Below, one piece after another: positions 1,064-16,464 of a stretch of DNA of 43,531 nt (position 1 is the first letter of the stretch; every line of letters begins with the position of its first letter). The notes beneath the pieces are model-generated. The model saw only the letters and a list, made by a program, of their open reading frames with translations. It was not told the origin of the DNA and made no database searches. Position numbers and translations under genes: made by a program. The stretch is from the sequence record DRR723986_647. The stretch is one strand, 5' to 3'.

Positions 1064-4000
1064 TTATCCGTTGTTGGAACGTGACAGCTCAACCCACAAC
1101 CCGCTATCATGGATAAGCACAAGCATGTCGGTGGACAGGTCCATTGTGAAATCACCGTTCAAGGCAATCGTAGCGCTATCCTTAACAACAACAGTATTGC
1201 TATCCGTTGCTGCTCTGAGCACTAAAATATCTCCGTTGTTGCCGCCATTTATGGTGGTTAAGTCGTCCGTGCTGCCGCTTTCAACGGCGATACGGTGAAA
1301 GCTTTTAGAAACAGTTACAGCCCCACTAGATATAGTGAGCGTTTCAACGCCTCCTAAAGATAACTTACCTTCAAGGTTTAATGACTTGTCTTCCTTGATC
1401 TCCGCAGCAAGTGCAAGACCCTCTGAGACATTCCGCACCCAAAACTGCATATCTGCATCACTGGTGGAAGAGCCGTTAAGTACGTTGATACGGGCCATTA
1501 CGCTATCGGCATTGTTAGCAAATTCTACGTTCCCTAGACCACTTCCAGCGGAACCGGCGTTGTTACGCCTTATAGTTATCTTGGCTGCGTTGCTGGCCGC
1601 AGATACCTGTAGGTCAGATATGCGGATGGCGGATGTATTGTTAAAGTCCCAATAGTCCGCACTGTGGTCCCAATGCAACCTATCGGTGGAGCCTGTTCTT
1701 ATTAATATATCATTAGCTTGAATGCTGTGCGTACTTCCGTAGAGGATTATATTTGCCCCGGTGGTGTCAGTACCTGAGTAGATATCAAGAGCGCTAGAGT
1801 TACTATCCCCGTGTATGGCTGGGACTGTTGTGGTGCCACTGAACTCTACATTTCCGCTGTTATCGACACCAATAGCGGTCGTTGATCCTATCTTTAGGTT
1901 AAATAATCCATCGCCAGCGCTCTCGCTATTTGATGTGAACTCGATAGCCGCTGCAAGAGAGCTATTTTGATAATACCCTATTTTGAATAGATCGGGGTCT
2001 CCCTCTTCAATCCCGGCAGCAACATAATCACCCGTTGACCCGCCAAAAAATATGTTCTTAGTTTCAGCTACATGTAAATCACCACTGACGGTCAGATCGC
2101 CGTTGACAGTCGCGTCGGTTTCTAATGTTGCTAAACTGGAAGTGAACGCCCCAACCACGTTGTTGCCGTTTGCGGCAAGATACAAAGTACCCTCAGAGCG
2201 CAAGGCGAGATCATCGGCCGTCTTGCCAGATATTGCAGCACCCGCGCCGCCACCAATATAGCCGAAAGGTGTGCCATTAGCCTTTAAAAACGTACCTACT
2301 GCGCCGGTATCAGCGCCCGATTTCATTTTAAACCAAACCCCACTAGTAACGTCTATGTCTAGTCTTGTTTTTAAAGTTGTTAGGCCAACCCCAAACTCGG
2401 CGAGATTAACCTCATCATATCGGATAAATGTTTGATCAGCGTAAGTGGTATGCGACTGTCCGTGTATTCTGATATTAGCACCCACAGTTGGGGACGTACC
2501 CCCCGATAACGTCATCTGCGTGGTAGAAGACGATTGGAATACAGAATTTAATTCAGAAATACTAGATACAACAAGGCGGCCAGCCATGGTCCACACTGAA
2601 CCGCTATCATCCCATCTCAGCCTTTGCGTAGTGCCTGACCTGAACAATATATCATTAGCTGTGGTGGCGTGGTTTTCTCCATAAAGTACTAAATTACCAC
2701 CGCTATCACCGTCCGTGCCGCCAGCTAGGATAAGCTGCACGGCATTGTTACCTCTAACTATAGAGGGTACACCGCTAATAGCGTTAGAATTGTAATTCCA
2801 TATAGACAGGCTAGCATCCCAAAGCAGCTTGGTATCAGACCCTTCTCGGAAGTTAATGTCTCCAGCGGTACCGGCGTACGCACTCCCACTAAATATAACA
2901 TTGCCGCCATCATTAGTGGCATCACCCCCGGCTAGCTGTATCTGAGCATTCGAACTGTTTCGAATCATCCCTGCACCGCTGGTCTTTATAAGCCCCGTGA
3001 CTGTCATGTTTCCAGTAGCGCCGTCAATTGCCCATTTATCGACAAAGGCAATGTCCGTGTCGACTGCGCCGCTCGTTGCATATTTATAAGCTATGCCTGT
3101 CGTAGTTTGACTTAGCGTTGTTGCCGTTCCAGTAGACTGTCTTTTCCACGTGCTGCCCGTAGAGAAATAAGCATTTACATTAGACCACCTGTCCACTCCT
3201 GTAGCGTTAAACATATCTGAATGTAGAGAGCAATACTGTACCGCGCGGTAACTATTGTGCCATGTTTCTGCGCCAGCATTGAATAACAACACTCTTCCTG
3301 TGCTGTCGAAGTCCAAGTCGCTGGAACCTGTTATATTTAGTCTGCCAGACATAGATAAGGAAGTAATACCTTCAACAGCGAGTGTGGTGAAACTCCATGA
3401 ACCGCCTGAATGGTTATAAAACAACTTGTTCGTTGAACCTGCCCTCAAAGCAATATCAGAAGCCTGTGTAGCATGAGCGCTAGGATAGAGAACTATGTTT
3501 GCACCAGCACCGACACTTGTATCTGACCCTAAGACAATACCGCCTGTACTATTGTTACTAAGAATGCTTCCGGCGACTGCTATATTACCGGCAGTTTCGA
3601 TATTCCCAAGCGCATCAAGGGTGAGATTCTCAACCGCACCGCTACCACGCAACACAAGATTATCAGCATTACCGTTAGCCTTGATAATAGCCTTGTTTGT
3701 GTCCCATGAAAGTTCACCACCTGCTGCAGAAGGGTTCCATGCAACAACACCGTCATCATTAACATAAAACCGCCGCGCACCGGCGCCGTGAACCTCAAAC
3801 TGTTTGTCATTTAACGAACTGCCTATACTCATCCCTGCGTCCACCGTAACACCGGCCCCCGGCGCAACCTCAGAGATCACATCGGCCTTAATATTGGGGT
3901 CCAGCAGAAAGTCCGCCGTCGCCGCACAAAACACCAATGCATTGCCAGACAAATCGATAGCACCAGGGCTGATTTTGTCATAAACCCCGTCCACCAAGGT

Positions 4001-4213
4001 TTCACCAACAGATGTTCGTTCCAGCGTATCTGTCGCCACTAACGTGCCATTGCCAATTTCATAATTATCACCGTCCTCAATCACATAGGTAACGGTGTCT
4101 CCCACGGAAAAGGCATCCGCAAATGTAACGTGGGCAGCAACAGCACCTACCAGGGTAATGTCGCCAGTGCCGGTCGTCAGCGTTACTTCTCGCACTCTGT
4201 TTGCAAGCGTCAT
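1064..4213 (-). CDS. Phage fibre/spike protein with about five internal repeats
   Basis: N-terminal LANRVREVTLTTGTGDITL.GA virion-attachment-type motif; Gly/Ser/Thr-rich beta composition; repeated GxN(I/V/L)x(L/I/F)xG/P..H...AxD(I)xxRxGxxx(K/R)LxW units; fibre-tip-like C-terminus (WVELSRSNN). Likely start ATG 4213 (RBS AAGGA); the track starts at 4228. Confidence 0.75.
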   Translation of the reverse strand: MTLANRVREVTLTTGTGDITLVGAVAAHVTFADAFSVGDTVTYVIEDGDNYEIGNGTLVATDTLERTSVGETLVDGVYDKISPGAIDLSGNALVFCAATADFLLDPNIKADVISEVAPGAGVTVDAGMSIGSSLNDKQFEVHGAGARRFYVNDDGVVAWNPSAAGGELSWDTNKAIIKANGNADNLVLRGSGAVENLTLDALGNIETAGNIAVAGSILSNNSTGGIVLGSDTSVGAGANIVLYPSAHATQASDIALRAGSTNKLFYNHSGGSWSFTTLAVEGITSLSMSGRLNITGSSDLDFDSTGRVLLFNAGAETWHNSYRAVQYCSLHSDMFNATGVDRWSNVNAYFSTGSTWKRQSTGTATTLSQTTTGIAYKYATSGAVDTDIAFVDKWAIDGATGNMTVTGLIKTSGAGMIRNSSNAQIQLAGGDATNDGGNVIFSGSAYAGTAGDINFREGSDTKLLWDASLSIWNYNSNAISGVPSIVRGNNAVQLILAGGTDGDSGGNLVLYGENHATTANDILFRSGTTQRLRWDDSGSVWTMAGRLVVSSISELNSVFQSSSTTQMTLSGGTSPTVGANIRIHGQSHTTYADQTFIRYDEVNLAEFGVGLTTLKTRLDIDVTSGVWFKMKSGADTGAVGTFLKANGTPFGYIGGGAGAAISGKTADDLALRSEGTLYLAANGNNVVGAFTSSLATLETDATVNGDLTVSGDLHVAETKNIFFGGSTGDYVAAGIEEGDPDLFKIGYYQNSSLAAAIEFTSNSESAGDGLFNLKIGSTTAIGVDNSGNVEFSGTTTVPAIHGDSNSSALDIYSGTDTTGANIILYGSTHSIQANDILIRTGSTDRLHWDHSADYWDFNNTSAIRISDLQVSAASNAAKITIRRNNAGSAGSGLGNVEFANNADSVMARINVLNGSSTSDADMQFWVRNVSEGLALAAEIKEDKSLNLEGKLSLGGVETLTISSGAVTVSKSFHRIAVESGSTDDLTTINGGNNGDILVLRAATDSNTVVVKDSATIALNGDFTMDLSTDMLVLIHDSGLWVELSRSNNG

Positions 4214-4253
4214 CCAGCAATCCTTCATGAAATCAAAATGGCAAATTTGGGCA

Positions 4254-4308: not shown

Positions 4309-5397
4309 TTACGCTGCAAACTCCAACAGCTTAATCGCGTCTGCATTTACAACGGCGCCGCCCACCCGCTTAGTGGCATAGAACAACACATTTGGTTTGT
4401 TGGTGTATGGGTCGCGCAGCACGCGCGTGCCGGTGCGCTCTACAATGGTGTAACCACGCTCGAAGTTACCGAAAGCAACCGAAAGCGAACCTGCCGCCAT
4501 ATCGGGCATATCTTCCGCTTCCACGACCGGGTAACCCAGCAACATGTCAGGCTGACCTTCAATCAAGCCTGGGCGCCAGATGAAATTGCCGTCTGTGTCT
4601 TTCATCTTGCGAATTTCAGCCAACGTCGCGCTGTTCATCACGAACTTTGCACCCTGCCGGTACCGGCTACCTAGTGCATGCACCAAGTCGACCAGAATGT
4701 CGGAAGGGTCAGAGCCGGGAAAACCACCATCAACGCCCGTTGTTACCTTGCCAATCGCAGCTTCAGTCAAAAAGCCTTTGGGCTTATTCACACCGTCACC
4801 GTCAATTACCGCTGCGCCTTCCTGGGCGGCAAACTCTTCTGCCACTTCTTCGGTCAGCCATGCTTCGGCGTCAAACTGCATGTCGTCCAGTGCGCGCTGG
4901 GTTGCAGCAGCGTTGGCGTAAATTTCGCCGGGTGTGATCGCAACTTCGATTAGCGACGGCGTTGCGGTATCACCGCGCGCATCTTCCTCGCCCACCCAGC
5001 CAGAAGCCGTACCGCCTGTGTTCACCAACCTCGTATATTTTGACGTCTCAATGGTTTTAACTTTACAAATTGAGCGCATGGGCGACAGATCACGCAGTTG
5101 CTTTTCAATCTCGCTGTCAATCACTGTGGGCACAGCAAAGCCGCCGTCACCGCCAGTTGCGGTTGAAAGACCTTTGGCCTCCAGGTCTTTCAACAGGCTG
5201 TCATCACCTTTGGTGATAAAGCCGTTTAGAAATGCGTGCTTATGCTCAAGCGCATCGGCGCATATGGCACTGCCGGCGTCGCCCGGGCGGGCCATTTTTG
5301 TTTCCATTGCATCCAGTCTGTCTTTCAGGCCCAGGATGCCACTTTCTGCCGCGTCGGTGTAATCATCGATCGCAGTCTTTAGGTCAGTCATTTCCAT
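4309..5397 (-). CDS. HK97-family major capsid protein (RcGTA-like)
   Basis: Motifs LEAKGLSTATGGDGGFAVP, ASGWVGE, GDGVNKPKGFL, LLGYPVVEAEDMPD, FGNFERGY and RDPYTNKPNVLFYATKRVGG are typical of alphaproteobacterial GTA/HK97 capsids. Confidence 0.95.
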   Translation of the reverse strand: MEMTDLKTAIDDYTDAAESGILGLKDRLDAMETKMARPGDAGSAICADALEHKHAFLNGFITKGDDSLLKDLEAKGLSTATGGDGGFAVPTVIDSEIEKQLRDLSPMRSICKVKTIETSKYTRLVNTGGTASGWVGEEDARGDTATPSLIEVAITPGEIYANAAATQRALDDMQFDAEAWLTEEVAEEFAAQEGAAVIDGDGVNKPKGFLTEAAIGKVTTGVDGGFPGSDPSDILVDLVHALGSRYRQGAKFVMNSATLAEIRKMKDTDGNFIWRPGLIEGQPDMLLGYPVVEAEDMPDMAAGSLSVAFGNFERGYTIVERTGTRVLRDPYTNKPNVLFYATKRVGGAVVNADAIKLLEFAA

Positions 5398-5631: not shown

Positions 5632-5940
5632 CTACCTGCATTGATTTGAAGACGGCACCTCTTTTATCCGCAAAACCGACCCCCGGCCTAAATATAACTC
5701 AGAAAGTGTTTTGTCATCATCCAGGGGACCACCGCCCTGTGTTAAGTGAAACTTTCGTATTTCAAGACCAAGCTTGGCAGATACCTGTTGCTTTAAAGCG
5801 CAAATCATCATCGTATCGAGATCAATATTCTTGAATTGAAACTGCTCACCGTTATACCGAACGTGTACATAATCCGTCGCCGCCAGCGCTGGGACAAATC
5901 CCACGCACAACAAAACTATCGCTAAAATCAACCGTTTCAT
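5632..5940 (-). CDS. Secreted ubiquitin-like (beta-grasp) protein
   Basis: Sec signal MKRLILAIVLLCVGFVPALA. The mature segment LKQQVSAKLGLEIRKFHLTQGGGPLDDDKTLSELYLGRGSVLRI aligns by eye with ubiquitin [44 protein letters not shown]. No C-terminal GG. RBS GGGAG. Confidence 0.8.
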   Translation of the reverse strand: MKRLILAIVLLCVGFVPALAATDYVHVRYNGEQFQFKNIDLDTMMICALKQQVSAKLGLEIRKFHLTQGGGPLDDDKTLSELYLGRGSVLRIKEVPSSNQCR

Positions 5941-6090: not shown

Positions 6091-6795
6091 ATGACAAATC
6101 GTAAAATATTCATTACTGGCATGCTCGCTGGCATTATATTAACGGTAGTGATAGGCTCAATTGGCGAAGACACACCCTACAGCCAAACATACCTACGGCT
6201 GAGTAATGATGACCCTTCGCTTGCGTTGCCAACGTTTGCAAAAAACATCGAAGTTATCGCACCTGTTTTTAGTCAAGAGAAAGCCGCTAATACAGCCTAT
6301 ATTTCAATATACACCGCTCGGCCCTTGCTTGATATCACGCCGACCGAAGTTGAGAGCGTTTGCATCCGAAACGCCTTACTCGATTTTGACGGTGCTGAAA
6401 AATGGGAAGCCGAAGTTAATCTCACAGACCCAGACGCAATCGCCAAAGCCCACGTCGATGCGGGTACATTCCACAACAACGAACGTCAGCCAATCGGAGT
6501 TGTTCGATTTGGCCAACTCAATGACTACGAACAAAATGTCAAAATTGGTTCTTTCTTTGAGCGGACTAACCCCTCTATTGAAGAAGCACAAAATCAGCGT
6601 GACAAAATCAGCGTTTTTTTCAACGAGATGGATGTCCCAAACATGTCTCTTATTTTATTGCAGCTTGACGGTACCGGCGTCATCAAGCCTTGTGATTCCT
6701 CAATGGACATGACCGTCTACGACCGATGGCGTCATCAATGGACCAGTGGCCAAGGCTACAACGGAGTTGCGCTAGCGCCCGGGTATAAATACTGA
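6091..6795 (+). CDS. Hypothetical N-terminally anchored/exported protein
   Basis: 234-aa ORF with N-terminal hydrophobic helix and two Cys; GGGG upstream of ATG. No family recognised. Confidence 0.75.
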   Translation: MTNRKIFITGMLAGIILTVVIGSIGEDTPYSQTYLRLSNDDPSLALPTFAKNIEVIAPVFSQEKAANTAYISIYTARPLLDITPTEVESVCIRNALLDFDGAEKWEAEVNLTDPDAIAKAHVDAGTFHNNERQPIGVVRFGQLNDYEQNVKIGSFFERTNPSIEEAQNQRDKISVFFNEMDVPNMSLILLQLDGTGVIKPCDSSMDMTVYDRWRHQWTSGQGYNGVALAPGYKY

Positions 6796-6801
6796 GAAAA
6801 A

Positions 6802-6915
6802 ATGGCACAAGTAAACAAAGAAAAATACGAAAGTCGCTACAAGTGGAACAACCATATGCGTGGCATTGTGATGGGTATACTCCTCACCGTTATCTACTAT
6901 GAGTTTATCGCGTAG
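6802..6915 (+). CDS. Small single-TM protein (37 aa)
   Basis: My translation: MAQVNKEKYESRYKWNNHMRGIVMGILLTVIYYEFIA. It begins 6 nt after the upstream stop and is below the ORF-track length cut-off. Confidence 0.45.
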   Translation: MAQVNKEKYESRYKWNNHMRGIVMGILLTVIYYEFIA

Positions 6916-6943
6916 GGATCCCTGTACTGTTGTTGGTGATAAA

Positions 6944-8047
6944 CTAACGTACGGAAACAGTAAATCGGCCAGCACGCTGCTTCAGATTAGCAATTGAAGG
7001 GTCTTCATGTTCATGATGAACCAACGTTGCGCTTGTACTATCCAGAACTAATTGCTCGGGAAATTGCTCTATCCAGTCTCTTGGGTTTAAAGGATTAAAT
7101 TCGGGAGGTCGTCCTCGATCAACGGAACGAGATGTATTTTGATCGGTCAATTTGATCTGATGCCGTATAGGACGTCGACCCGAAAAATCATAATAGTTAA
7201 TGAAACAAATGAACCGTGCCCAAGACGGTGCATCTATTTGAAATGTTACACGCCCCAATCTAACAGGCCCTATAGTAAAGTTTTTTTCTTTTCCCGGAAA
7301 AACAGTCACGCTCCTAAAGGGGGTTCTGACAGACTCAAATAAGTTAAGCAGAGACTCAATGCTTCGTTTTGCTTCCAGTCTGCCTTGACGGTGTTGCACC
7401 GATGTAATCAAATCAGCTATTTCTACACGATCAAAATTGCTCTTAAACCCTTTGGCCGTAATCGCCTTGGCGCGGCTGCGGGAAAAGCCCTGCTCGCGCA
7501 GGAAACGCTCGAAGGTTCGAGGGTCGTTAATGTCTCTGGTCTCGAAATTCGTGTCCATGCTTTCCGTCCTTTGTTTCACTGTCTGCACACGCGCTAACTC
7601 GTTGGCCGGGAAGGTCACCAGGGACACTTCCATCAAATCTGCGCGCTTAATAGTTCGGGTGCCCGCGGCGCTGTTGCGCATTGCCTCTTTGGTTACAAAA
7701 CCAATCGAAAGCCCGTTAAGGGCACCCATTTTTAAAAGTTCATAGGCCTCCGCGCCCCGTCCAGACTGTGCCAGCCGCCCTTTGACAAACAGGCCGCGCT
7801 CGTCTTCGCGCACCACATCAAACCGGCCAATGGGCTCTTTGGCATTGTGCTGCCACAACAGGGCAGGCAGGCGGGCTTTTAGGCTTTCCATGAACGCGCC
7901 CTTGGCCACTACATCACCGTCGCGGTCGGTGTTGCCGAACACCGCGCCGTAACCTTCAAACTCGCCGGGTAAGCCGCCCGCTTTCACCTCAAGCGGAAGG
8001 TCAATAACCGATCGTTCACTAGTGTTCAGCACGTTTTGCATCGGCAT
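6944..8047 (-). CDS. HK97-family prohead protease (peptidase S78) with an extra 140-aa C-terminal domain
   Basis: FEGYGAVFGNTDRDGDVVAKGAF, LLWQH, PIGRF, GLSIGF and LMEVSLVTFPAN identify the protease. After RLEAK (aa 227) comes an unrelated AT-rich domain. Confidence 0.9.
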   Translation of the reverse strand: MPMQNVLNTSERSVIDLPLEVKAGGLPGEFEGYGAVFGNTDRDGDVVAKGAFMESLKARLPALLWQHNAKEPIGRFDVVREDERGLFVKGRLAQSGRGAEAYELLKMGALNGLSIGFVTKEAMRNSAAGTRTIKRADLMEVSLVTFPANELARVQTVKQRTESMDTNFETRDINDPRTFERFLREQGFSRSRAKAITAKGFKSNFDRVEIADLITSVQHRQGRLEAKRSIESLLNLFESVRTPFRSVTVFPGKEKNFTIGPVRLGRVTFQIDAPSWARFICFINYYDFSGRRPIRHQIKLTDQNTSRSVDRGRPPEFNPLNPRDWIEQFPEQLVLDSTSATLVHHEHEDPSIANLKQRAGRFTVSVR

Positions 8048-8088: not shown

Positions 8089-8117
8089 TAAAAAAGGCCG
8101 GTGAAACACCAGCCTTT
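8089..8117 (-). terminator. Intrinsic terminator after cspA
   Basis: Minus strand AAAGGCTGGTGTTTCACCGGCCTTTTTTA. Confidence 0.7.
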
Positions 8118-8139
8118 AAAAACAATATTTGTAGTGAGT

Positions 8140-8346
8140 TTAGAGCAGTTTAAGTTCACCCGCGCTCATGCGGCCCCTGCGGTCTTCAACCAGCTCGTAT
8201 GAAATTGCCTGATCGTCGTCCAAGCCCCGAAGGCCTGCTTCTTCTAGTGCTGAGATATGAACAAAAACATCATCGCCGCCTGCTTCAGGCTTAATGAAGC
8301 CAAAACCCTTTGTCGCGTTAAACCATTTTACCGTACCGTTCGCCAT
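8140..8346 (-). CDS. cspA: Cold-shock protein
   Basis: GTVKWFNATKGFGFI and DVFVHISAL (RNP1/RNP2 motifs). Confidence 0.95.
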   Translation of the reverse strand: MANGTVKWFNATKGFGFIKPEAGGDDVFVHISALEEAGLRGLDDDQAISYELVEDRRGRMSAGELKLL

Positions 8347-8574
8347 TGTAGTAAACCCCTATCGTGCATATTAAAGTTATCATCAGAAGGCGAAACCGTA
8401 AGGCCGCTTTTGTCGAATTTCAAGAGCAAGTCCGGGTAAGCAAACCCCCAAAAGATTGTTTTTCCGCGCGCATCGTTGTAATGATGCCGCAAGGGGCACA
8501 AATCTATAAAAACCCTATAAAGAGCCTATGAAGGCCTTTACGGCCATAAAGTCGACCGCGACAGGATCGAACCA

Positions 8575-8826
8575 ATGAACGAACAACTAGAGCAGAAATC
8601 ACCCAAATACCGCTTTTGGTTAACGGTAATTGCGATGGTGATGTCAGGTGTATTTGCCCTTATGGGCCTTGGCAGTTTTTCGTTGGGTCAAGGCCTTGCA
8701 TCGGCCCCGGAAAACATCGACCCCGATGCCACTATCCTGACCTTCAATTTCATCGGTTCAGTCTTGCTTTTGATGGTACCCGCCTGCCTGTTGCTCGCCT
8801 ATATGGTGCGCCCTGACGGGAAATAG
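8575..8826 (+). CDS. Small 2-TM hypothetical membrane protein
   Basis: 83 aa with two hydrophobic helices; RBS AGGA. Confidence 0.65.
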   Translation: MNEQLEQKSPKYRFWLTVIAMVMSGVFALMGLGSFSLGQGLASAPENIDPDATILTFNFIGSVLLLMVPACLLLAYMVRPDGK

Positions 8827-8839
8827 AAAGTCTTAAATT

Positions 8840-9265
8840 TTACCTACTAGATATCTTGCTTTCACGCTTAATAATAGCAAGTTGGTTGCTTCGTCTTCTC
8901 CAAAAATAGGCGCCGAGCCCCCAAGTGATAACAACAAGACCAATACTTGCCAATTTCATCCAGAGAATTAGAGAATGAGCTACCTCACTTAATGTGGCGG
9001 TGCCCACGAACTCAATATTAAGAGCAATAAAAATTGAAAGAAAGAAAGAGCCTACGGAAAAACTTACATTGGAGATAAAGTTCCAAGCCGTTAAATTCTC
9101 GAGCTCAGATTCCATTACTCCATACACAGTCGGAGTCCTTTCAACATAAAGTGGTTTTACAGTTGAGCCATCTATACTCGGTGAAAAAGAATGAACTAGT
9201 TCCGAATCTTCTACCTGTTCAACGGAACCATCATGATCATCACTATTACTTTCCCCATCATCCAT
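8840..9265 (-). CDS. Hypothetical 2-TM membrane protein with acidic N-terminus
   Basis: 141 aa with two C-terminal TM segments; AT-rich; start overlaps the upstream stop (TAATG). Confidence 0.7.
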   Translation of the reverse strand: MDDGESNSDDHDGSVEQVEDSELVHSFSPSIDGSTVKPLYVERTPTVYGVMESELENLTAWNFISNVSFSVGSFFLSIFIALNIEFVGTATLSEVAHSLILWMKLASIGLVVITWGLGAYFWRRRSNQLAIIKRESKISSR

Positions 9266-9522
9266 TACTTGGACTCCTCTTTTAGAAGGCCCATTACAAC
9301 TGTATTAAAATACCTAGTTGCGCCACAATTAGTGCACACGACCATCACTTGCGGGTATGAAGGCCCACCTATTTGTAGCGCCCCGTCAGAAGCCACAGTT
9401 GGTTGCACAATATGGTCAGCAATGGTGTGACTTGAAGAGCCACATTCTCTACAGGCACCTGCTCGCGGTGCGCGCTTTTGCAAGAAGTCAGCTATTTTAT
9501 CTTTATCGGCCTTACTCAACAT
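9265..9522 (-). CDS. Small Zn-ribbon protein (CxxC...CxxC)
   Basis: CRECG and CTNCG motifs; RBS GGAG; translationally coupled to the downstream membrane gene. Confidence 0.75.
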   Translation of the reverse strand: MLSKADKDKIADFLQKRAPRAGACRECGSSSHTIADHIVQPTVASDGALQIGGPSYPQVMVVCTNCGATRYFNTVVMGLLKEESK

Positions 9523-9581: not shown

Positions 9582-10793
9582 CTACTTCTTATCAAACCCA
9601 AGAGCCTTGCGTTTTTCTTCGTCGCTGAGGAAGCCTGCACTTGCTATGCGGGCAAACCGCGCGGCGCGTTTGGCGGCCAAGGCCGGTACATCTTCCAGGT
9701 CTATCGCCAGTGAAAGCCGGTCACGACCATTCGCGGGTGCTTCAAAGTCTGGCACCAGCCAATTGGTCAGCTCGGCGGCAATGTCCTGCGCCAACGGAAT
9801 CACCGTGTCTTCCCACAGGCTTTGCCGCGCTTCTGCGTAATTTGAATATGTCTGCGCGTCCGGCACACCCATCATTTGCGGCGGCACACCGAAAGCAGTA
9901 GCAATCTCGCGTGCGGTCATGTTTTTAGCGCTGGCCCAGTCCATATCTTTGGGGCTCATGCCCATTTCCTGCCACTTAAGGCCGCCTTCAAGCAGCAAGG
10001 GCCGTCCGGCGTTTAGTGCACCAGTATATTGTTGCTCAACCTGTTCCTTAAGCTTATCAAACTGCGTGTCGGTCAGCGGCGCATCCGCATCTTCCTGGTA
10101 CAGCACACCCGAGGGGGTGCCGCCGTTTTGAATAAGCGCCAAGTTCCAGCGGCTGCCTTCATTGTGAGCATCCACCGCCATGGCTGCGGCCTCAAGCGGC
10201 GCAAGGCCGTACCAGTCAGACAGGGGATTAAAGCTTTTCAGGTGCAACACAGCCTCTGCGCTGTAGCGTTGTTTTTTGCCCAGCACATGCTGCTCGAACC
10301 CGGCAGCAAGACCGTCTGCGCCTTCAACCACCTTCATGGTGTCCGGGCGCATTAACCACAACTCTTTCGGCTCGCCGCCCTCCGGCCCCACCTTCAGGGC
10401 GTAAGAGTTGCCCGCAATCATATAATAGCCAACGAAGTTATAGAGGAAGTTTTCGCCCTTCAGGCGCGGGTTGGGGCGCGCCAGCAAGTTCAGCAACGGG
10501 TGTTCGCTTACCCGCTCGTTGCCCCGCATTAACACCAAGGGAATGCTGGCCACCGCTTTGGCAACCAGATTAACCGCCCGGTAAGCCACCACATTCTGGC
10601 GGTAGCCCTCATCGGCCAGCCGGTCATAGCGGCGCGGGGTTGAAACCGCGTTGCCGGGGCCTACACGCGCCCACACAGGGCGCTTGGCTTGTTTATGGGC
10701 CAGCTTGTGAGACAGTTTTGGCCCGCCCGACTGCGGCGGGGCTTTGCCGGCCACGTTGCTGCGCGCACCAAACAGTCTGTCAAATATCGCCAT
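9582..10793 (-). CDS. HK97-family phage portal protein (GTA-like)
   Basis: GYRQNVVAYRAV, HPLLNLLARPNP, GLAPLEAAA, NAGRPLLLEGGLKWQEMGMSPKDMD, AREIATAFGVPPQ and TYSNYAEAR. ATG overlaps the terL stop (TGATG). Confidence 0.95.
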   Translation of the reverse strand: MAIFDRLFGARSNVAGKAPPQSGGPKLSHKLAHKQAKRPVWARVGPGNAVSTPRRYDRLADEGYRQNVVAYRAVNLVAKAVASIPLVLMRGNERVSEHPLLNLLARPNPRLKGENFLYNFVGYYMIAGNSYALKVGPEGGEPKELWLMRPDTMKVVEGADGLAAGFEQHVLGKKQRYSAEAVLHLKSFNPLSDWYGLAPLEAAAMAVDAHNEGSRWNLALIQNGGTPSGVLYQEDADAPLTDTQFDKLKEQVEQQYTGALNAGRPLLLEGGLKWQEMGMSPKDMDWASAKNMTAREIATAFGVPPQMMGVPDAQTYSNYAEARQSLWEDTVIPLAQDIAAELTNWLVPDFEAPANGRDRLSLAIDLEDVPALAAKRAARFARIASAGFLSDEEKRKALGFDKK

Positions 10794-12106
10794 CAAAATG
10801 TCCTCAGGTTCGGAAGGGATTTACGGCCAAGCATCAAATCGGTCAGCGCCCACACCGCTGCATCCAGCCGGTCAGGGCTTTCGCCCGCAGCCTTGTGCGC
10901 GCCAGTAAGATTACCAGTGAAATTACACATTTGGTCTTCCAGTGCTGGCAATGCGCCCCAGTGGGACACCCTGCCTTGCTCATACAGGGCGGCAACCGGT
11001 TCCGCGCGGGCGATTTTTGCCCGGGTTGCGTGCACAGCCCTGTAGGCCACGCCTGCGTCCACCTCACGGATGATGGCTTCCACCATGGCACCGCCCATGT
11101 TGACTTCAGCAACGATGCGGTCGGCCTGTAACTCGTGGTACAGCGCCACCGCACGGCTGGCCCAACCGTGAGGGCTGAGGCCACGTTCGCTGGCGTCTTT
11201 GATAATAACGCCCTGCCCGTCGTGGGTAATGCCTGCAGCAACGATGCCGCATTCGTCTGCTTTCTCGCCCATGCTGGCAGGCGGGTCCACCGCCACAACA
11301 AGGCGGGCAAAGTCGGGTAAGTTGTGAATTCGGTTTGCTTCAATCAGGCTACGGGTCCACAGCGCGCCAGGGGTGTCCTCGAGAATTTCTGCGTTCAGTT
11401 CCTGACGCCCCAGCCGCGTGCCGCGGTAACGCGCGACAATATCGCGGGCAAAACCGGGGGCCAAATTCTTCAAATTGTCAAAGGTGGTGCCTTTGGTAAT
11501 GCGTGTCTTTGAGTTGCCAACCAACCGCTTCAAAATAGGGATCGGCTTCGGTGTTGTCGTAATCAGCGCCTTCGGCGCACGGCCAAGCCGCAGGCCAAAC
11601 AGCATCATGTCAAATGTGGTCTCTGCCTGTTTCCAGGCACATAGTTCGTCGCACCAAACCGCATCATGTTGCGGGCCGCGCAGGCGTTCGGGCTCCTCGG
11701 CACCAAATAAGGTAGCAACCGCGCCGTTAGGCCATGTAAGCGTGCGCTTGGACGGCTCATAAACCGGCTTGAACCAAGGCGGCGAAACGGCAAGCAAACC
11801 GCTGTCACCTTCCACCATAACCGCTCGGGCATCATGCAGCGTGGGCGCAATCAAGGCGATGCGCTTGGCACCACCAGTTTCCGCAAGCCCGCGCACCCAT
11901 TCGGCCCCGGCCCGGGTTTTGCCGAACCCCCGCCCCGCCAGCATAAGCCAGTATGTCCAGCGACCAGAGGGTGGCCGCTGGTTAGGGCGCGCCCAAAAGT
12001 CCCAGTCGTAATAGAGGCTGGCCGCTTCTGTGGCGGTAAGGCTATTCAGAAATTTGCGACGTTTTCCCTTTGGCAGCGACCGCACCGAACTTGCTGATAA
12101 GCGCAT
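10793..12106 (-). CDS. terL: Terminase large subunit (RcGTA-like)
   Basis: Walker A AGRGFGKTRAGAEW, LRGPQ, Walker B WCDE, ITTTPKP; nuclease motifs VAVDPP and SPDRLDAAVWA. Confidence 0.95.
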   Translation of the reverse strand: MRLSASSVRSLPKGKRRKFLNSLTATEAASLYYDWDFWARPNQRPPSGRWTYWLMLAGRGFGKTRAGAEWVRGLAETGGAKRIALIAPTLHDARAVMVEGDSGLLAVSPPWFKPVYEPSKRTLTWPNGAVATLFGAEEPERLRGPQHDAVWCDELCAWKQAETTFDMMLFGLRLGRAPKALITTTPKPIPILKRLVGNSKTRITKGTTFDNLKNLAPGFARDIVARYRGTRLGRQELNAEILEDTPGALWTRSLIEANRIHNLPDFARLVVAVDPPASMGEKADECGIVAAGITHDGQGVIIKDASERGLSPHGWASRAVALYHELQADRIVAEVNMGGAMVEAIIREVDAGVAYRAVHATRAKIARAEPVAALYEQGRVSHWGALPALEDQMCNFTGNLTGAHKAAGESPDRLDAAVWALTDLMLGRKSLPNLRTF

Positions 12107-12566
12107 CGCGGGCCCCTTCCAAATTCAAGTCATCGGCAGTTTTGCCGCTGCCGTCTTTTGTCATACTTTTGCCGGTCGTGCCGTAGCGTTCCGGCCTGCG
12201 TGATTTCAACAGAAACATCAGCATGGCGTCAGAATAGTCGGCCACATGGCCCACAACTTCACCGCCCCGGTACACAGGTTTTTCAACGCCCGTGACCGCA
12301 CGCCGGAAAGCTTCTTCTTCGATAATATCAGTGCCAGCCTCTTCCGCCGCTGCCCACTCAGCCGCAAAGCCCGCATCATCCTTACGCCAGCAATAGGGCG
12401 CGCTTGCTTTCACACCAGCCGCAACCGTCGCCGCCCGAACACTTTGCCCCGCAGCAATATGATCGAGAAATGTGGTTTTAGCTGGCTCCAACTTATGCAA
12501 GCTGTTATCGCCTTGCCCGCATACTGACCCACCCAAAGAGACAAGCTCGTCGTCCTTAGCGGTCAT
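12042..12566 (-). CDS. terS: Terminase small subunit
   Basis: HTH (FLDHIAAGQSVRAA...WRKDDAGFAAEW), EEEAFRRAVTG and YSDAMLMFLLKSRRPERY; overlaps the terL start. Likely start ATG 12566 (RBS GGAG) rather than the track start at 12665. Confidence 0.85.
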   Translation of the reverse strand: MTAKDDELVSLGGSVCGQGDNSLHKLEPAKTTFLDHIAAGQSVRAATVAAGVKASAPYCWRKDDAGFAAEWAAAEEAGTDIIEEEAFRRAVTGVEKPVYRGGEVVGHVADYSDAMLMFLLKSRRPERYGTTGKSMTKDGSGKTADDLNLEGARDALISKFGAVAAKGKTSQISE

Positions 12567-12583
12567 AGACACATCTCCGGTGC

Positions 12584-12623
12584 AAAAAATAAAAAACGCC
12601 GCCAGACAGATGTCTGCGACGTC
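12584..12623 (-). terminator. Leader terminator immediately upstream of terS
   Basis: Minus strand GACGTCGCAGACATCTGTCTGGCGGCGTTTTTTATTTTTT: hairpin plus long U-tract, lying between the operator at 12690 and the terS RBS. Confidence 0.65.
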
Positions 12624-12689
12624 GATGCATAGCTTCTCAATTTGACTGTCCCTATGGTGCATCAATATGCTTTAGGGTGCAAGTTATTT

Positions 12690-12704
12690 TTACGTTTTTC
12701 GTAA
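12690..12704. promoter_or_regulatory. Palindromic operator TTACG-N5-CGTAA upstream of the packaging operon
   Basis: Perfect TTACG-TTTTT-CGTAA; near-identical copies at 16385, 16440, 17660 and 17691. Confidence 0.65.
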
Positions 12705-12745
12705 ATTAATTTATTAAGCCAATGGAATCAGGTGATTAAGACAAA

Positions 12746-12785
12746 GAAAAAGCCCGCTCCGAAACATTGTCCCGAGAGCGAGCTA
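12746..12785 (-). terminator. Intrinsic terminator (minus direction)
   Basis: Minus strand AGCTCGCTCTCGGGACAATGTTTCGGAGCGGGCTTTTTC. Confidence 0.55.
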
Positions 12786-13103
12786 ATTCAGTCACTATGG
12801 CTATTGTTAGACTGCAATAAAACAGGGGTTCACGCAAGTGTTTTTTTCATCCTAGCCCGCATCAATCTTGGCCTTCTGGTCAGGAATGACGCCTAAATAT
12901 TGCTTAAGGTCTTGGTCTTTAACACACAGTTGGCGGCCTGTGTGGCCCGCAATGGCTAAAATTAATCTGGAAATAGAAACAAATTGACGCTAATGCTGTC
13001 TCCGTTTGGGGAAACGCGGCACGTAAGTTTCAGAGATTGTGGGGATCTCTGGTGTTTTGGTAACGACTGCGTTTTAAATGTTTTGATTAAGGGGGACGTC
13101 AAC

Positions 13104-13223
13104 ATGCAGCGAGATAGAACCAACACAAGAATGCGCCATGGTATGGCCTGTTGGGCCGCAATGGTTAGCTTTTTCGGCGTGATTGGCGGCGTGCTGTACT
13201 ACAGCCTGTCTGCCTCTGTGTAA
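13104..13223 (+). CDS. Small single-TM protein (39 aa)
   Basis: MQRDRTNTRMRHGMACWAAMVSFFGVIGGVLYYSLSASV with strong RBS AAGGGGGA. Confidence 0.5.
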   Translation: MQRDRTNTRMRHGMACWAAMVSFFGVIGGVLYYSLSASV

Positions 13224-13250
13224 CACCGAACCCGGCCATTGCTTGTGGCA

Positions 13251-13817
13251 TCAAGCCAGAGCGGATCTGATGGCCTCATGTTCTCCTGCTTGCTTCTCAG
13301 GCACACCAAACCCAATATCAATATAGGACAAACTGCGCAGAACCGAACTGGCTACGCCGCCATTGTTGCTGTCGTCTAAATCAAATTGCCGACTGGGCAA
13401 CATCAACCCAATGGTGTTCTGGGGTTTGCCGTCAGGATTATCGACCGGAAAACCCAAGCTGGAAAGCGTATAGCTTTTGCCGCTTTCAAACAGCACATCG
13501 CGCACCACCATGCTGGCGCAGGGCAATGCAAAAACATTTTTGGTAATTTCCATATAAATCGGCGCGTCTTGCGGCGGGCATACATCGAGGTAGTTCATGC
13601 CCGTAATGGCATTGCCCGAGATTTCATCCAGCGACGTACCTACCAGCCGCACAAGCATGTCCGTAGGCGACCGATGCTCCAGAATATACACATAAGGCAA
13701 CAATGTGGGAATTTGGCATGGGTCAAACTGCGAACGCATAGGCAAGCCCCCACCAGCATCAGCCTGCAAGGACTTCCAATATTTTGTAAATTGCTCGAAT
13801 TGGGCCGAAACTATCAT
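13251..13817 (-). CDS. PAS-domain protein (PAS_5/DUF1457 type)
   Basis: YWKSL...LPMRSQFDPCQIPTLLPYVYILE...VRLVGT signature; paralogue of the adjacent gene. Confidence 0.8.
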   Translation of the reverse strand: MIVSAQFEQFTKYWKSLQADAGGGLPMRSQFDPCQIPTLLPYVYILEHRSPTDMLVRLVGTSLDEISGNAITGMNYLDVCPPQDAPIYMEITKNVFALPCASMVVRDVLFESGKSYTLSSLGFPVDNPDGKPQNTIGLMLPSRQFDLDDSNNGGVASSVLRSLSYIDIGFGVPEKQAGEHEAIRSALA

Positions 13818-14024
13818 CTGCGCAAGCCCCTGTTCTAACCCGGTTAGCAAAAAAAGCTTAAATACACTACTACCACATACCGTTCAGCCCACAGGGCCAA
13901 TATGCGGCACATTATCACACACTATTACTGCAAATATAGCATCAAAATCGCAGAAGCAATAACCTTACTATCGCTAAAAATGCAGCGGCAATGGCGGGTA
14001 GAGAATGCCTTCATTTTGGTGTTT

Positions 14025-14606: not shown

Positions 14607-14657
14607 AGATGCCAGCTCCCCCTTACGAACCACCCTGCCAGCGAACCCTATCATAAA

Positions 14658-15209: not shown

Positions 15210-15294
15210 GAAGTAAGCGTCCTTTCTTCGAGTGTGATCGTTTTTTTGGGGAGGGGGTAGTTTGTCGTTGAACCAGTGCTGCTGTTTAACGCCG

Positions 15295-16347: not shown

Positions 16348-16384
16348 AGTGTCTCCTGTGAATTACGAATTGATTTTCATTTTA

Positions 16385-16454
16385 TTTCGTTTTTCGTAAT
16401 TTATGAAGCGAAATAATTTTTAAAATATCTTGCAATTAATTACTAAATTCGTAA
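16385..16454. promoter_or_regulatory. Divergent promoter region with two operators
   Basis: TTTCG-TTTTT-CGTAA (16385-16399) and TTACT-AAATT-CGTAA (16440-16454). TTGCAA at 16430-16435 is -35-like and the repressor ATG lacks an RBS, consistent with a leaderless mRNA. Confidence 0.6.
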
Positions 16455-16464
16455 TAGTAGCTTT

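What the first reader, a model, noticed from the sequence alone, without database searches (positions are those of the whole stretch)
6944..8047. Prohead protease fused to a foreign 140-aa domain behind a capsid-type cleavage motif (LEAK): candidate capsid-delivered cargo
Seen: the S78 protease and its helical linker end at ...RQGRLEAK (K227, nt 7367-7378). A 140-aa domain follows (6944-7366) that is visibly more AT-rich and has no phage motif I recognise. The same tetrapeptide LEAK lies in the capsid protein at aa 72-75 (nt 5173-5184), immediately before GLSTATGGDGG. Related motifs are LEVK at the protease N-terminus and METK in the capsid N-terminal region. Known: HK97-type proteases co-assemble inside the prohead and remove the capsid delta domain by cutting after a Lys at the equivalent position; MuF proteins are a precedent for head proteins carrying variable C-terminal toxins. 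Inference: the protease frees this domain inside the maturing head, so the particles would carry a swappable protein cargo (effector or toxin). The convergent genes next door (6091-6915) could be partner or immunity genes.
Basis: partly seen in the sequence, partly recalled or inferred. Interest (0 to 1): 0.85.

Follow-up and report, generated by a model that had tools for sequence, protein, structure and literature searches.

The report
Swappable cargo domains on head protease
A phage-like head gene cluster of a marine alphaproteobacterium hangs interchangeable small protein domains on the tail of its capsid-maturation protease, each usually paired with a membrane protein gene, which looks like an undescribed way of loading variable protein cargo into virus-like particles.

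Summary
The 367-aa ORF (6944-8047, minus strand) is an HK97-family prohead protease (Pfam S78, TIGR01543). After ...LEAK (K227) comes a real, conserved 140-aa beta-sandwich domain, not read-through. LEAK also sits at the predicted maturation boundary of the capsid protein.

- **Swapping:** of the 120 best database homologues plus the query (121), 89 carry at least 40 aa after this junction. These extensions fall into 13 sequence families, and 68 of 89 have Lys at the junction.
- **Uncoupled from protease phylogeny:** a protease 96.7% identical in the constant part carries an unrelated extension.
- **Free-standing copies (new):** related Kordiimonas-type loci also encode proteins made of the protease's C-terminal tail as an N-terminal leader, then h-E-x-K, then a variable domain.
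- **Partner genes:** most modules are followed by a convergent gene of one divergent superfamily, N-terminally anchored with two invariant Cys. The window's 6091-6795 belongs to it.
- **Setting:** the cluster lies at a conserved chromosomal site, so it is GTA-like or domesticated.

Best reading: capsid-targeted, protease-released cargo. A toxin role is unsupported: no known toxin or enzyme fold was found, and cargo-partner matching holds only at family level. Packaging and cleavage are untested.

The scan noted T4-type leader-cargo systems and a Kordiimonadales GTA-like cluster on other DNA, but not this system.

The parts
7553..7963 (-). S78 / HK97-family prohead protease domain (aa 29-165). 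H67 and S114 are invariant across homologues.
   Evidence: Pfam PF04586 E 2.5e-32. TIGR01543 122.8 bits, cut-off 59. Invariant columns in A3.
7445..7546 (-). Constant part of the protease tail, or 'leader' (aa 168-201, R-x-F-E-R-x-L-R-x-x-G-F-S-R-x-R-A-K-A-I-T-A-K-G-F). It is the C-terminal end of canonical short S78 proteases, and the N-terminus of the free-standing cargo genes in relatives.
   Evidence: Invariant or near-invariant columns up to F201 in A3. The linker HMM hits lie 3-38 aa from the C-terminus in distant proteases, and at residues 5-22 of the stand-alone ORFs. Also.
7367..7444 (-). Variable spacer helix (aa 202-227) ending in the junction motif LEAK (nt 7367-7378). Proposed cleavage site after K227.
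   Evidence: Junction statistics. The same motif type lies at the capsid maturation boundary. Cleavage itself is not shown.
6947..7366 (-). Family-A extension (aa 228-367): a short helix followed by a beta-sandwich. Proposed capsid-internal cargo.
   Evidence: Conserved family (A1, A2). AlphaFold2 pLDDT 85.2, pTM 0.76. Purifying selection against L001: pN 0.13, pS 0.75. Only 12 representative clusters in 1.84 billion proteins.
6091..6795 (+). Convergent partner gene (234 aa). It has an N-terminal hydrophobic anchor preceded by R/K and two invariant Cys, and is probably periplasmic. It belongs to a divergent superfamily that accompanies the cargo modules.
   Evidence: Alignment A4, with invariant C91, D171 and C201. 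28.6% identical to the gene after L002's family-A protease. The partner HMM hits only loci with extensions. Model pLDDT 62; best fold match is the SecDF P1 domain, Z 5.9, which is weak.
5632..5940 (-). Conserved 102-aa gene just upstream of the capsid gene. It has a signal-peptide-like N-terminus and a ubiquitin-like fold hint. It lies next to the cassette region; its role is unknown.
   Evidence: Pfam ubiquitin E 3.5e-5, below the cut-off. Homologues in L001, L002, L003, L005, L006 and L090.
4309..5397 (-). HK97-type major capsid protein. LEAK (nt 5173-5184) lies at the predicted propeptide/mature boundary.
   Evidence: Pfam Phage_capsid E 5.2e-87. h-E-x-K followed by G/A-L-S/T is conserved in all 12 close sources.
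9582..12665 (-). Portal (9582-10796), large terminase (10793-12106) and small-terminase-like gene (12042-12665) of the same cluster.
   Evidence: Pfam and PHROG hits. Same gene order in L002, L003, L005, L006 and L009.

Best explanation
The gene encodes a prohead protease whose own C-terminal tail (aa about 168-227) doubles as an address tag for an attached, exchangeable domain.

**Inferred mechanism.**
1. The protease co-assembles inside the procapsid through this tail, as canonical HK97-type proteases do, dragging the 140-aa beta-sandwich in with it.
2. When the protease becomes active it cuts after h-E-x-K, both at the capsid propeptide boundary and at K227 of itself.
3. The folded domain is then left trapped in the head. 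It would leave with the DNA.

In relatives the same tail, detached from the protease, heads separate cargo genes lying between the protease and capsid genes. One particle could therefore carry several cargo types.

The DNA that encodes the tail is repeated at each cassette. This gives homologous recombination a handle for swapping which domain is fused to the protease.

The convergent, membrane-anchored and probably periplasmic partner gene travels with the cassette. It most likely acts in cells that are not producing particles, as an exclusion or immunity factor or as a receiver for incoming cargo.

**Shown here:** the architecture, the conservation pattern, the junction motif, the cassette repeats, the family-level cargo-partner linkage and the conserved chromosomal site.

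**Inferred only:** encapsidation, cleavage, ejection, and what the cargo and partner do.
For: 1. **The extension is a real, selected domain.** It forms a conserved family, gives a confident model (pLDDT 85.2), and shows pN 0.13 against pS 0.75 versus L001.
2. **Polymorphism after a fixed junction.** 89 of 121 sequences carry at least 40 aa after the junction, in 13 families. 68 of 89 have Lys at the junction, against 6 of 32 short forms. Families A and B are unrelated by profile comparison.
3. **Swapping among near-identical proteases.** Over Q20-201, P0005 is 96.7% identical but carries family B. P0012 is 92% identical with no extension. The nearest same-family protein, P0001, is only 82% identical.
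4. **The tail is portable.** There are 8 stand-alone ORFs in 5 loci (L001, L002, L005, L008, L013) made of tail, motif and variable domain. Of the 10 non-protease proteins that match the extension alone, 6 carry the tail motif. The L002 and L005 stand-alone genes have AGGAG-type ribosome-binding sites 5-7 nt before the ATG.
5. **The tail is normally the C-terminus.** In distant S78 proteases the same tail ends 3-38 aa before the C-terminus. Three close homologues stop 2-18 aa after h-E-x-K, so the extension is an accessory.
6. **The capsid boundary carries the same motif type** in all 12 close sources.
7. **Cassette structure.** 15 of 22 cargo modules are followed within 400 nt by a convergent partner-family gene. 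The partner HMM found 19 hits, all in 12 sources that have extensions, and none in the remaining sources with canonical proteases. Across 91 cassette pairs the counts were: both similar 19, cargo only 7, partner only 16, neither 49 (odds ratio 8.3). L002 has three 94-nt direct repeats of the tail-coding DNA.
8. **Precedents read in papers.** T4 capsid-targeting sequences, and the SPN3US protease C-terminal propeptide proposed as a packaging signal (PMC7411985, introduction passages and section 3.5). The first 30 residues of P1 DarB suffice for capsid targeting (PMC9024508, abstract and passages). About 60 protease copies per HK97 prohead and about 90 per D3 prohead (PMC12749128, passages).

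That the C-terminal part of the HK97 protease is its encapsidation signal (Duda et al. 2013) is recalled. I saw only the paper's title, in reference lists.
Against: - No particle proteomics, cleavage data or expression data exist for this system. Every functional step is inference.
- 21 of 89 extended homologues lack Lys at the aligned junction column. Some have it a few residues away. 28 of 89 lack the strict motif in the wider window.
- The extended forms are also the closest relatives, so the extended-versus-short contrast is not phylogenetically independent.
- The fold is a generic beta-sandwich with no match above noise (Foldseek: 0 hits at E <= 1e-3; best Z 7.9). Nothing says what the cargo does.
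- Some stand-alone copies look decayed. L090 10575-10997 has only about 40 aa after the tail. The L008 and L090 copies retain a fragment of the protease's last strand. Part of the array may therefore be displaced, silent remnants and not expressed cargo.
- 7 of 22 modules have no adjacent partner. One of these is cut by a contig end.
- Partner matching breaks down at fine scale. The L002 and L005 '254-aa' partners have dN 0.027, while the neighbouring Cys-rich cargo bodies have dN 0.65. The same partner family also follows family-A-like cargo in L003 and L008.
Confidence: 0.55

Rival explanations
1. Polymorphic toxin-immunity system riding in the head. The variable domains are toxins delivered to other cells, the convergent membrane proteins are cognate immunity proteins, and the stand-alone copies are orphan toxin/immunity cassettes like those behind cdiA or rhs genes.
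For: The locus has the formal hallmarks of such a system:
- a conserved N-terminal part, a demarcating motif and a variable C-terminal domain;
- a small variable gene adjacent to each module;
- arrays of downstream modules that keep a short stretch of homology to the main gene;
- family B cargo paired with one partner subfamily in 7 of 7 cassettes.

MuF- and portal-fused effector domains are a published precedent for head-delivered effectors (PMC5512222, passages). The comparison with cdiA and rhs orphan modules is recalled, not read here.
Against: - None of the 64 extended proteases scanned has any Pfam family beyond S78. Three single hits at E 0.002-0.01 are noise.
- NCBIfam and PADLOC gave nothing for the cargo or partner proteins.
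- Family A is a plain beta-sandwich.
- All partners belong to one superfamily, unlike typical immunity repertoires.
- Partner genes are convergent, not co-directional.
- There is no fine-scale co-variation: partner dN 0.027 beside cargo dN 0.65, and within family B, cargo and partner identities do not track each other.
Confidence: 0.15
2. Assembly role. The extension is a scaffold-like, core or protease-regulating domain needed to build or size the head, as in protease-scaffold fusions (lambda C/Nu3, P2 gpO; both recalled). The neighbouring genes are unrelated morons.
For: Fusions of S78 proteases to other head proteins exist: NCBIfam NF045541, a protease/major-capsid fusion, gives a partial hit. 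The extension sits in a head operon and is under purifying selection. The capsid propeptide here is short, about 75 aa.
Against: - The extension is predicted to be a beta-sandwich, not helical or coiled-coil.
- Close relatives lack it (three stop 2-18 aa after the motif; P0012 is 92% identical and 212 aa long).
- Unrelated families replace it while the capsids stay 89-94% identical.
- Partner genes co-occur with extensions too regularly to be random morons.
Confidence: 0.15
3. Protease-activated intracellular proteins that are not packaged. The tail plus h-E-x-K serves as a substrate or docking module, so the prohead protease releases or activates the domains in the producing cell. Possible uses are timing of lysis or envelope changes together with the membrane partners, or a sensor of competing phages' proteases.
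For: The shared motif with the capsid cleavage site fits any protease-substrate relation. The partners are envelope proteins. A 2026 preprint reports that phage proteases activate CBASS immunity by proteolysis (PMC12991175; I saw only the search listing and the start of the abstract).
Against: - The leader is the whole roughly 60-aa tail that canonical proteases carry at their C-terminus. That is more than a cleavage site would need.
- The genes lie between the protease and capsid genes, in the late orientation.
- No PADLOC family matches.
Confidence: 0.1
4. Artefact. The 140 aa are read-through into AT-rich inserted DNA after loss of the protease stop codon.
For: GC drops at the junction. No known family matches the extension.
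Against: The extension is a conserved family with a confident fold and low pN/pS. It also occurs in independent stand-alone genes.
Confidence: 0.01

Closest known systems
Phage T4 capsid targeting sequence (CTS) on internal proteins IPI-III and Alt, removed by prohead protease gp21
   Same: A shared leader on otherwise unrelated proteins, ending in the head protease's cleavage motif. The genes lie near the head genes, and the cargo bodies are highly variable between relatives (PMC7411985 introduction passages; PMC9024508 passages).
   Different: - Here the leader is a helical tail of about 60 aa, borrowed from the protease itself, not a 10-20-aa peptide.
- The protease is S78/HK97-type, not T4 gp21-type.
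- One cargo is fused to the protease.
- Each cargo has a convergent membrane-protein partner.
- The setting is a chromosomally fixed, GTA-like cluster.
HK97 gp4 protease C-terminal encapsidation signal (Duda, Oh & Hendrix 2013, J Mol Biol 425:2765)
   Same: Same protease family. The tail used here as a leader corresponds to the C-terminal end of canonical proteases.
   Different: In HK97 the tail ends the protein, and only engineered fusions carry cargo. Both points are recalled; I saw only the paper's title, in reference lists. Here nature appears to have placed variable domains after the tail and to have copied it onto separate genes.
MuF- and portal-fused effector domains; polymorphic toxin systems with orphan CT/immunity cassettes (CdiA, Rhs)
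   Same: A head-internal protein with variable C-terminal domains (PMC5512222 passages). A demarcating motif, an adjacent small variable gene, and downstream arrays that keep a short homology to the main gene (the CdiA/Rhs comparison is recalled).
   Different: - The carrier is the maturation protease, not MuF or the portal.
- No recognisable toxin domain was found.
- The partners are a single superfamily, convergently oriented and membrane-anchored.
- There is no fine-scale co-variation.
[quoted passage not shown]
   Same: Terminal propeptides that direct proteins, including the protease itself, into proheads and are then removed (PMC9024508 abstract; PMC7411985 section 3.5).
   Different: Those phages use unrelated sequences and different protease families. 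No cassette polymorphism or partner genes are described in the passages I read.
RcGTA/CcGTA-type gene transfer agents
   Same: Small-terminase-like/TerL/portal/S78 protease/HK97 capsid order, followed by head-tail adaptor genes. A conserved chromosomal position across species. A DUF6362-like gene upstream (weak). Earlier scan note e1-4274517.
   Different: I know of no variable cargo region between protease and capsid in described GTAs (recalled). My searches for 'gene transfer agent' together with Kordiimonas or Kordiimonadales found 0 papers. Random DNA packaging was not tested.

Membership tests
HK97-family prohead protease (Pfam PF04586 Peptidase_S78; TIGR01543) | Profile match above the curated cut-off | tested here: met
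   PF04586 112.7 bits (cut-off 21). TIGR01543 122.8 bits (cut-off 59).
HK97-family prohead protease (Pfam PF04586 Peptidase_S78; TIGR01543) | Conserved His and Ser of the catalytic site | tested here: met
   H67 and S114 are invariant in 37 sequences (A3). That these two are the catalytic residues is recalled from HK97 gp4, not tested.
HK97-family prohead protease (Pfam PF04586 Peptidase_S78; TIGR01543) | Position between the portal and major capsid genes | tested here: met
   Three extra genes separate portal and protease in this window.
Capsid-targeting-leader cargo systems (T4 CTS type) | One leader shared by otherwise unrelated proteins encoded near the head genes | tested here: met
   The leader HMM hits 8 stand-alone ORFs and 14 protease tails in the 14 close sources. 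Families A and B are unrelated.
Capsid-targeting-leader cargo systems (T4 CTS type) | The leader ends in the cleavage motif used on the capsid protein | tested here: inconclusive
   The same h-E-x-K motif type lies at both places. Neither cleavage has been mapped, and 21 of 89 lack Lys at the aligned column.
Capsid-targeting-leader cargo systems (T4 CTS type) | Cargo physically present in particles and processed | not testable with these tools
   Needs particle proteomics.
Capsid-targeting-leader cargo systems (T4 CTS type) | Homology to the T4 CTS or gp21 system | tested here: not met
   The protease is S78/TIGR01543, and the leader is a tail of about 60 aa. The resemblance is in how it works, not in descent.
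Polymorphic toxin-immunity systems | Conserved N-terminal part with variable C-terminal domains after a demarcating motif | tested here: met
Polymorphic toxin-immunity systems | The C-terminal domains are toxins (recognisable toxin or enzyme folds, or shown toxicity) | tested here: inconclusive
   No Pfam family beyond S78 in 64 of 64 extended proteases. No NCBIfam or PADLOC hit. Family A is a beta-sandwich, best Z 7.9. Toxicity not assayed.
Polymorphic toxin-immunity systems | An adjacent immunity gene that co-varies with the toxin domain | tested here: inconclusive
   There is family-level linkage (19/7/16/49; family B 7 of 7). There are also discordant cases and no fine-scale co-variation. 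Binding is untested.
Polymorphic toxin-immunity systems | Downstream orphan cassettes with short homology to the main gene | tested here: met
   L001, L002, L005, L008, L013 and L090. 94-nt repeats in L002.
Protease-scaffold fusions (lambda C/Nu3, P2 gpO type) | The C-terminal part is helical, indispensable and tied to the capsid protein | tested here: not met
   Predicted beta-sandwich. Close relatives lack it. Unrelated families replace it beside capsids that are 89-94% identical.
Gene transfer agent (RcGTA type) | Head-tail cluster fixed at one chromosomal site across species, diverging like its flanking genes | tested here: met
   A Lactamase_B_2 orthologue (74-77% identity) lies about 17-21 kb from the protease in 3 of 5 genomes searched. 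TerL is 77-79% identical in the same genomes. It was not found in the other two genomes with this query.
Gene transfer agent (RcGTA type) | GafA/GafYZ-type regulator; packaging of random host DNA; no autonomous replication | tested here: inconclusive
   DUF6362 hit only at E 0.0055, below the cut-off. A DUF1376 'primosomal' gene and an HTH repressor are present. DNA content of particles is not testable here.

The most novel reading that the evidence does not exclude
A domesticated, GTA-like particle of Kordiimonadales delivers polymorphic protein cargo together with DNA. Each cargo is addressed to the head by a copy of the protease's own tail and cut free after h-E-x-K. In the recipient's periplasm, cognate membrane-anchored partner proteins decide the outcome: immunity to a kin-discriminating effector, exclusion, or licensing of DNA uptake. 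Recombination between the repeated tail-coding segments switches which cargo is fused to the protease, giving a cassette-based 'identity' system for gene-transfer particles.
Probability: 0.15. Interest if true: 0.9.

Novelty: new variant of a known kind. Interest (0 to 1): 0.72.

Why it matters
Loading proteins into phage heads through a removable address tag is known from T4, P1 and giant phages. Engineered HK97 protease tails can carry foreign proteins (recalled). A natural system in which the HK97-type protease tail is the portable tag would extend that principle in three ways:
- it applies to the commonest capsid lineage;
- the tag is fused to exchangeable domains and copied onto separate genes;
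- the genes are organised as recombining cassettes with partner genes.

It would also offer a ready-made, genetically defined tag for packaging proteins into HK97-fold shells.

If the particles are gene transfer agents, they would move variable proteins as well as DNA between cells. That bears on how GTA exchange is restricted to kin.

My literature searches found no description of this. They cover only open-access PMC and bioRxiv, and supplementary files were not seen.

Tried and rejected
- **Whole-genome tools:** no genome is held for this window.
- **Extension, Foldseek against PDB:** 0 matches at E <= 1e-3.
- **Extension, VIA-align wide:** best Z 7.9 (GOLD domain 5azw_B, rmsd 3.3, 87 aligned), within the tool's stated noise range.
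- **Partner structure:** the model is poor (pLDDT 62.1). Its best match is the SecDF P1 domain 3aqo_A (Z 5.9, rmsd 2.8, 99 aligned). This is the only row at Z 5 or above, but it is below the noise mark, so I treat it as a lead only.
- **Complex prediction** (extension plus partner residues 60-234): no verdict (score 0.00; controls not run; the tool did not use my alignments).
- **ESM Atlas:** no usable hit for the extension or the partner.
- **Family searches:** PHROGs, NCBIfam and PADLOC found nothing for cargo, partner, the ubiquitin-like gene or the large variable protein.
- **Partner profile against 5.8 billion proteins:** only 2 hits; the search depends on shared 5-residue words.
- **P0131 lead:** P0131 is 98% identical to the window's partner. 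It lies on a contig of the same length (66,603) as the one holding protease P0014, which has a different extension. Adjacency could not be tested. It was not found in viral contigs.
- **Sequencing runs:** no RNA holder listed; three DNA runs hold 0.08-0.24 of the sampled words.
- **Promoter and terminator scan:** counts are not above shuffles, apart from one strong hairpin at 8093-8117.
- **CCTTAACAA motif** before the protease and capsid starts: 8 matches against 10 expected, so it was dropped.
- **Leader similarity within versus between loci:** stand-alone leaders are not consistently closer to their own locus's protease tail than to other loci's. I make no claim of concerted evolution.
- **Papers not held:** Duda 2013, Veesler 2014 and Huet 2016.
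- **PMC5512222:** its single mention of 'prohead protease' was not among the 12 passages shown.
Full report
**1. The observation**

The minus-strand ORF 6944-8047 encodes 367 aa.
- Residues 29-165 match Pfam Peptidase_S78 (E 2.5e-32).
- The protein passes the NCBIfam equivalog TIGR01543, 'HK97 family phage prohead protease' (122.8 bits, cut-off 59).
- LEAK is residues 224-227 (nt 7367-7378), and 140 residues follow.
- The capsid gene (4309-5397; Pfam Phage_capsid, E 5.2e-87) has LEAK at residues 72-75, directly before GLSTATGGDGG.
- GC falls from 0.50-0.61 in the protease domain to 0.42-0.44 in the extension. It stays low through the two neighbouring genes.

**2. The extension is a real domain**

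A search of 5.8 billion proteins returned 3191 homologues of 201-643 aa, and the best 120 were listed. They are mostly from Kordiimonas and Kordiimonadaceae.

Sixteen of these align with the query to its last residues, with conserved columns throughout the extension (A1).

AlphaFold2 on a 41-row alignment gave pLDDT 85.2 and pTM 0.76. The model is a short, less confident helix followed by a beta-sandwich.

Against the closest locus with the same extension (L001), the extension shows pN 0.13 with pS 0.75. That indicates purifying selection. Read-through after loss of a stop codon is excluded.

The fold has no informative match:
- Foldseek against PDB gave 0 hits at E <= 1e-3.
- The best VIA-align Z was 7.9, to a GOLD domain, within the tool's noise range.

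**3. Polymorphism behind a fixed junction**

Of 121 sequences (120 hits plus the query), 89 have at least 40 residues after the column of K227, and 32 do not. Three of the 32 stop 2-18 residues after h-E-x-K.

The 89 extensions form 13 clusters at E <= 1e-5 with at least 60% coverage. Cluster sizes are 43 (family A, including the query), 25 (family B), 7, 4 (Cys-rich), 2, and eight singletons. Families A and B show no profile-profile similarity (hhalign probability 0.7%).

Strong conservation ends at F201, the end of an R-x-F-E-R-x-L-R-x-x-G-F-S-R-x-R-A-K-A-I-T-A-K-G-F motif. Residues 202-227 are a variable spacer that ends in the motif.

| Measure at the junction | Extended forms | Short forms | Background or control |
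|---|---|---|---|
| Lys at the aligned column | 68 of 89 | 6 of 32 | - |
| h-[EDQ]-x-K at the aligned column | 49 of 89 | 3 of 32 | 0.64% per position |
| Motif in the wider window | 61 of 89 | 5 of 32 | 18% of random windows |

The extension type is uncoupled from protease phylogeny. Over Q20-201:
- P0005 is 96.7% identical but carries family B;
- P0010 (94.5%) and P0009 (92.5%) carry other family-A subtypes;
- P0012 (92%) has no extension;
- the nearest protein with the query's own subtype (P0001) is only 82% identical.

**4. The protease tail is a portable leader**

Searching the extension alone against 1.84 billion representatives found only 12 proteins. Two are proteases. Of the other ten:
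- six begin with the constant tail motif, followed by a spacer ending in x-x-K, then the domain;
- two have only the spacer;
- two start inside the domain (one lies on a 753-base contig).

I fetched related loci from genomes, metagenomes and viral contigs (L001-L169). In these, an HMM of the tail (Q168-227) hits the extreme C-terminus of distant S78 proteases, 3-38 residues from the end. Extensions and stand-alone copies occur only in the Kordiimonadales-type clade.

In 14 close sources there are 22 modules with at least 40 aa after the tail:
- 13 are fused to a full protease;
- 1 protease is cut by a contig end;
- 8 are stand-alone ORFs, in L001, L002, L005, L008 and L013.

The stand-alone genes lie between the protease and capsid genes, in the late orientation. 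In L002 and L005 they have AGGAG-type ribosome-binding sites.

The L008 and L090 copies still carry a fragment of the last protease strand. One L090 copy is truncated. So the copies arose by partial duplication or displacement of the protease 3' end, and some are decaying.

In L002 the 94-nt tail-coding segment is a threefold direct repeat (79-94% identity). The region upstream of the two stand-alone genes is a 103-nt repeat (96% identity). These repeats are obvious substrates for cassette exchange.

**5. Partner genes**

In 15 of 22 modules, a convergent gene of 215-295 aa follows within 400 nt. It has an N-terminal hydrophobic segment, judged by a simple hydrophobicity count and preceded by basic residues.

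Thirteen of these genes align as one very divergent superfamily (10-30% identity). They share two invariant Cys, an invariant Asp and a near-invariant Trp (A4), which suggests a disulfide-bonded periplasmic domain. The window's 6091-6795 is a member. It is 28.6% identical to the gene that follows L002's family-A protease.

An HMM of the superfamily found 19 ORFs. All are in 12 sources that have extensions, and none is in the remaining sources with canonical proteases. Those remaining sources are other lineages, so this is co-occurrence, not proof of coupling.

Across 14 cassettes (91 pairs; one cassette was dropped because its over-long ORF call failed my filter), the counts were:

| Cargo and partner similarity | Pairs |
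|---|---|
| both similar | 19 |
| cargo only | 7 |
| partner only | 16 |
| neither | 49 |

The odds ratio is 8.3. The pairs are not independent. Family B pairs with one partner subfamily in 7 of 7 cassettes, whether the cargo is fused or stand-alone.

Evidence against strict cognate pairing:
- The '254-aa' partner subfamily follows Cys-rich cargo in L002 and L005, but family-A-like cargo in L003 and L008.
- The L002 and L005 copies of that partner have dN 0.027, while the adjacent cargo bodies have dN 0.65.
- Within family B, cargo and partner identities do not track each other.
- Seven modules have no partner.

The partner model is poor (pLDDT 62). Its only match at Z 5 or above is the SecDF P1 domain (Z 5.9), which is a weak lead.

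**6. The capsid boundary**

All 12 close sources have h-E-x-K followed by G/A-L-S/T-T...GGDGG, at the position where Pfam's Phage_capsid model begins (aa 85 in this window). More distant capsids keep E-x-K there.

That HK97-type proteases cut the propeptide at this boundary is established for HK97 and D3 (PMC12749128, passages). The exact site in this lineage has not been mapped.

**7. Setting**

The gene order is:
HTH repressor - DUF1376 - DUF6362-like gene - two PAS_5 genes - small terminase - TerL - portal - protease - cassettes - ubiquitin-like gene - capsid - a large variable protein - head-tail adaptor genes.

This order is shared by Kordiimonas genomes. Host genes (TonB-dependent receptors and others) start near 17.3 kb in the window.

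A flanking Lactamase_B_2 gene has orthologues (74-77% identity) at about 17-21 kb from the protease in 3 of 5 genomes searched. That is as diverged as TerL (77-79%). The cluster is therefore chromosomally fixed and probably inherited vertically, i.e. GTA-like or a domesticated prophage. This agrees with earlier scan note e1-4274517.

Divergence is mosaic. Between L002 and L005, TerL has dS 1.4, capsid 0.32, one partner 0.10, and the cargo bodies are saturated.

**8. Interpretation**

The simplest mechanism that uses all these facts runs as follows:
- The tail addresses whatever follows it to the procapsid interior.
- The protease then cuts after h-E-x-K.
- The freed domains stay in the head. 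If protease copy numbers resemble those of HK97 or D3, that would be roughly 60-90 copies of the fused cargo per head (PMC12749128, passages).

This works like T4 CTS/internal proteins, P1 DarB and SPN3US propeptides (PMC7411985, PMC9024508). It is not homologous to them.

The cassette logic resembles polymorphic toxin loci. However, nothing identifies the domains as toxins, and partner matching is only coarse.

I therefore put capsid-targeted cargo at about 0.55 and the specific toxin-immunity version at about 0.15. The remainder goes to an assembly role (0.15) and to non-packaged protease substrates (0.10).

**9. Limits**

- All functional steps are inferred.
- The HK97 tail-as-signal result is recalled, because the paper was not held.
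- The homologue sets are capped (120 proteins; 80 loci per scan) and phylogenetically clustered.
- There are no expression data (see Tried and rejected).

Noticed in passing
window 8093-9522: Three genes between portal and protease have no counterpart in the related loci: a CspA-like cold-shock gene (8140-8346), a 141-aa membrane protein (8840-9265) and an 85-aa zinc-ribbon protein (9265-9522). A strong terminator-like hairpin (11-bp stem, 8093-8117) sits just upstream of the protease start, so late transcription would need read-through or a new start.
   Followed up: partly
window 1064-4228 (and L001-L008, L090): A large protein (891-1570 aa in relatives) is encoded between the capsid gene and the head-tail adaptor genes. 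Its first ~130 aa are conserved (58-76% identity), and the rest is repetitive, Gly/Ser/Thr-rich and hypervariable. No Pfam, PHROG or NCBIfam hit. It is absent from L009. It may be a head fibre or receptor-binding protein.
   Followed up: partly
window 5632-5940: A 102-aa protein with a signal-peptide-like N-terminus, a weak ubiquitin-family hit (E 3.5e-5, below cut-off) and a C-terminal Cys. It is conserved immediately upstream of the capsid gene in most related loci. A secreted ubiquitin-like protein in a head operon is unexplained.
   Followed up: partly
window 8575-8826: An 83-aa two-TM-like protein on the opposite strand, between portal and protease. It is conserved in L002, L004 and L005 (44-77% identity). 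In L090 a partner-superfamily gene lies at 6824-7558, upstream of the protease.
   Followed up: no
window 12665-17229: The upstream module consists of an HTH repressor (16465-17229), a DUF1376 'primosomal' gene, a DUF6362-like gene (E 0.0055) and two PAS_5 genes. It is conserved in order across Kordiimonas loci. This resembles the GTA regulator layout noted earlier by the scan on other DNA.
   Followed up: partly
L002 10506-13462: The 94-nt tail-coding segment is repeated three times (79-94% identity; spacing 1480 and 1383 nt). A 103-nt repeat (96% identity) lies upstream of both stand-alone cargo genes. This upstream repeat looks like a frame-shifted remnant of the protease's last strand.
   Followed up: partly
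L002 versus L005: Divergence is mosaic within one cluster: TerL and portal dS 1.4-1.6, capsid dS 0.32, the last partner gene dS 0.10. This implies recent exchange of the capsid-proximal block between lineages.
   Followed up: partly
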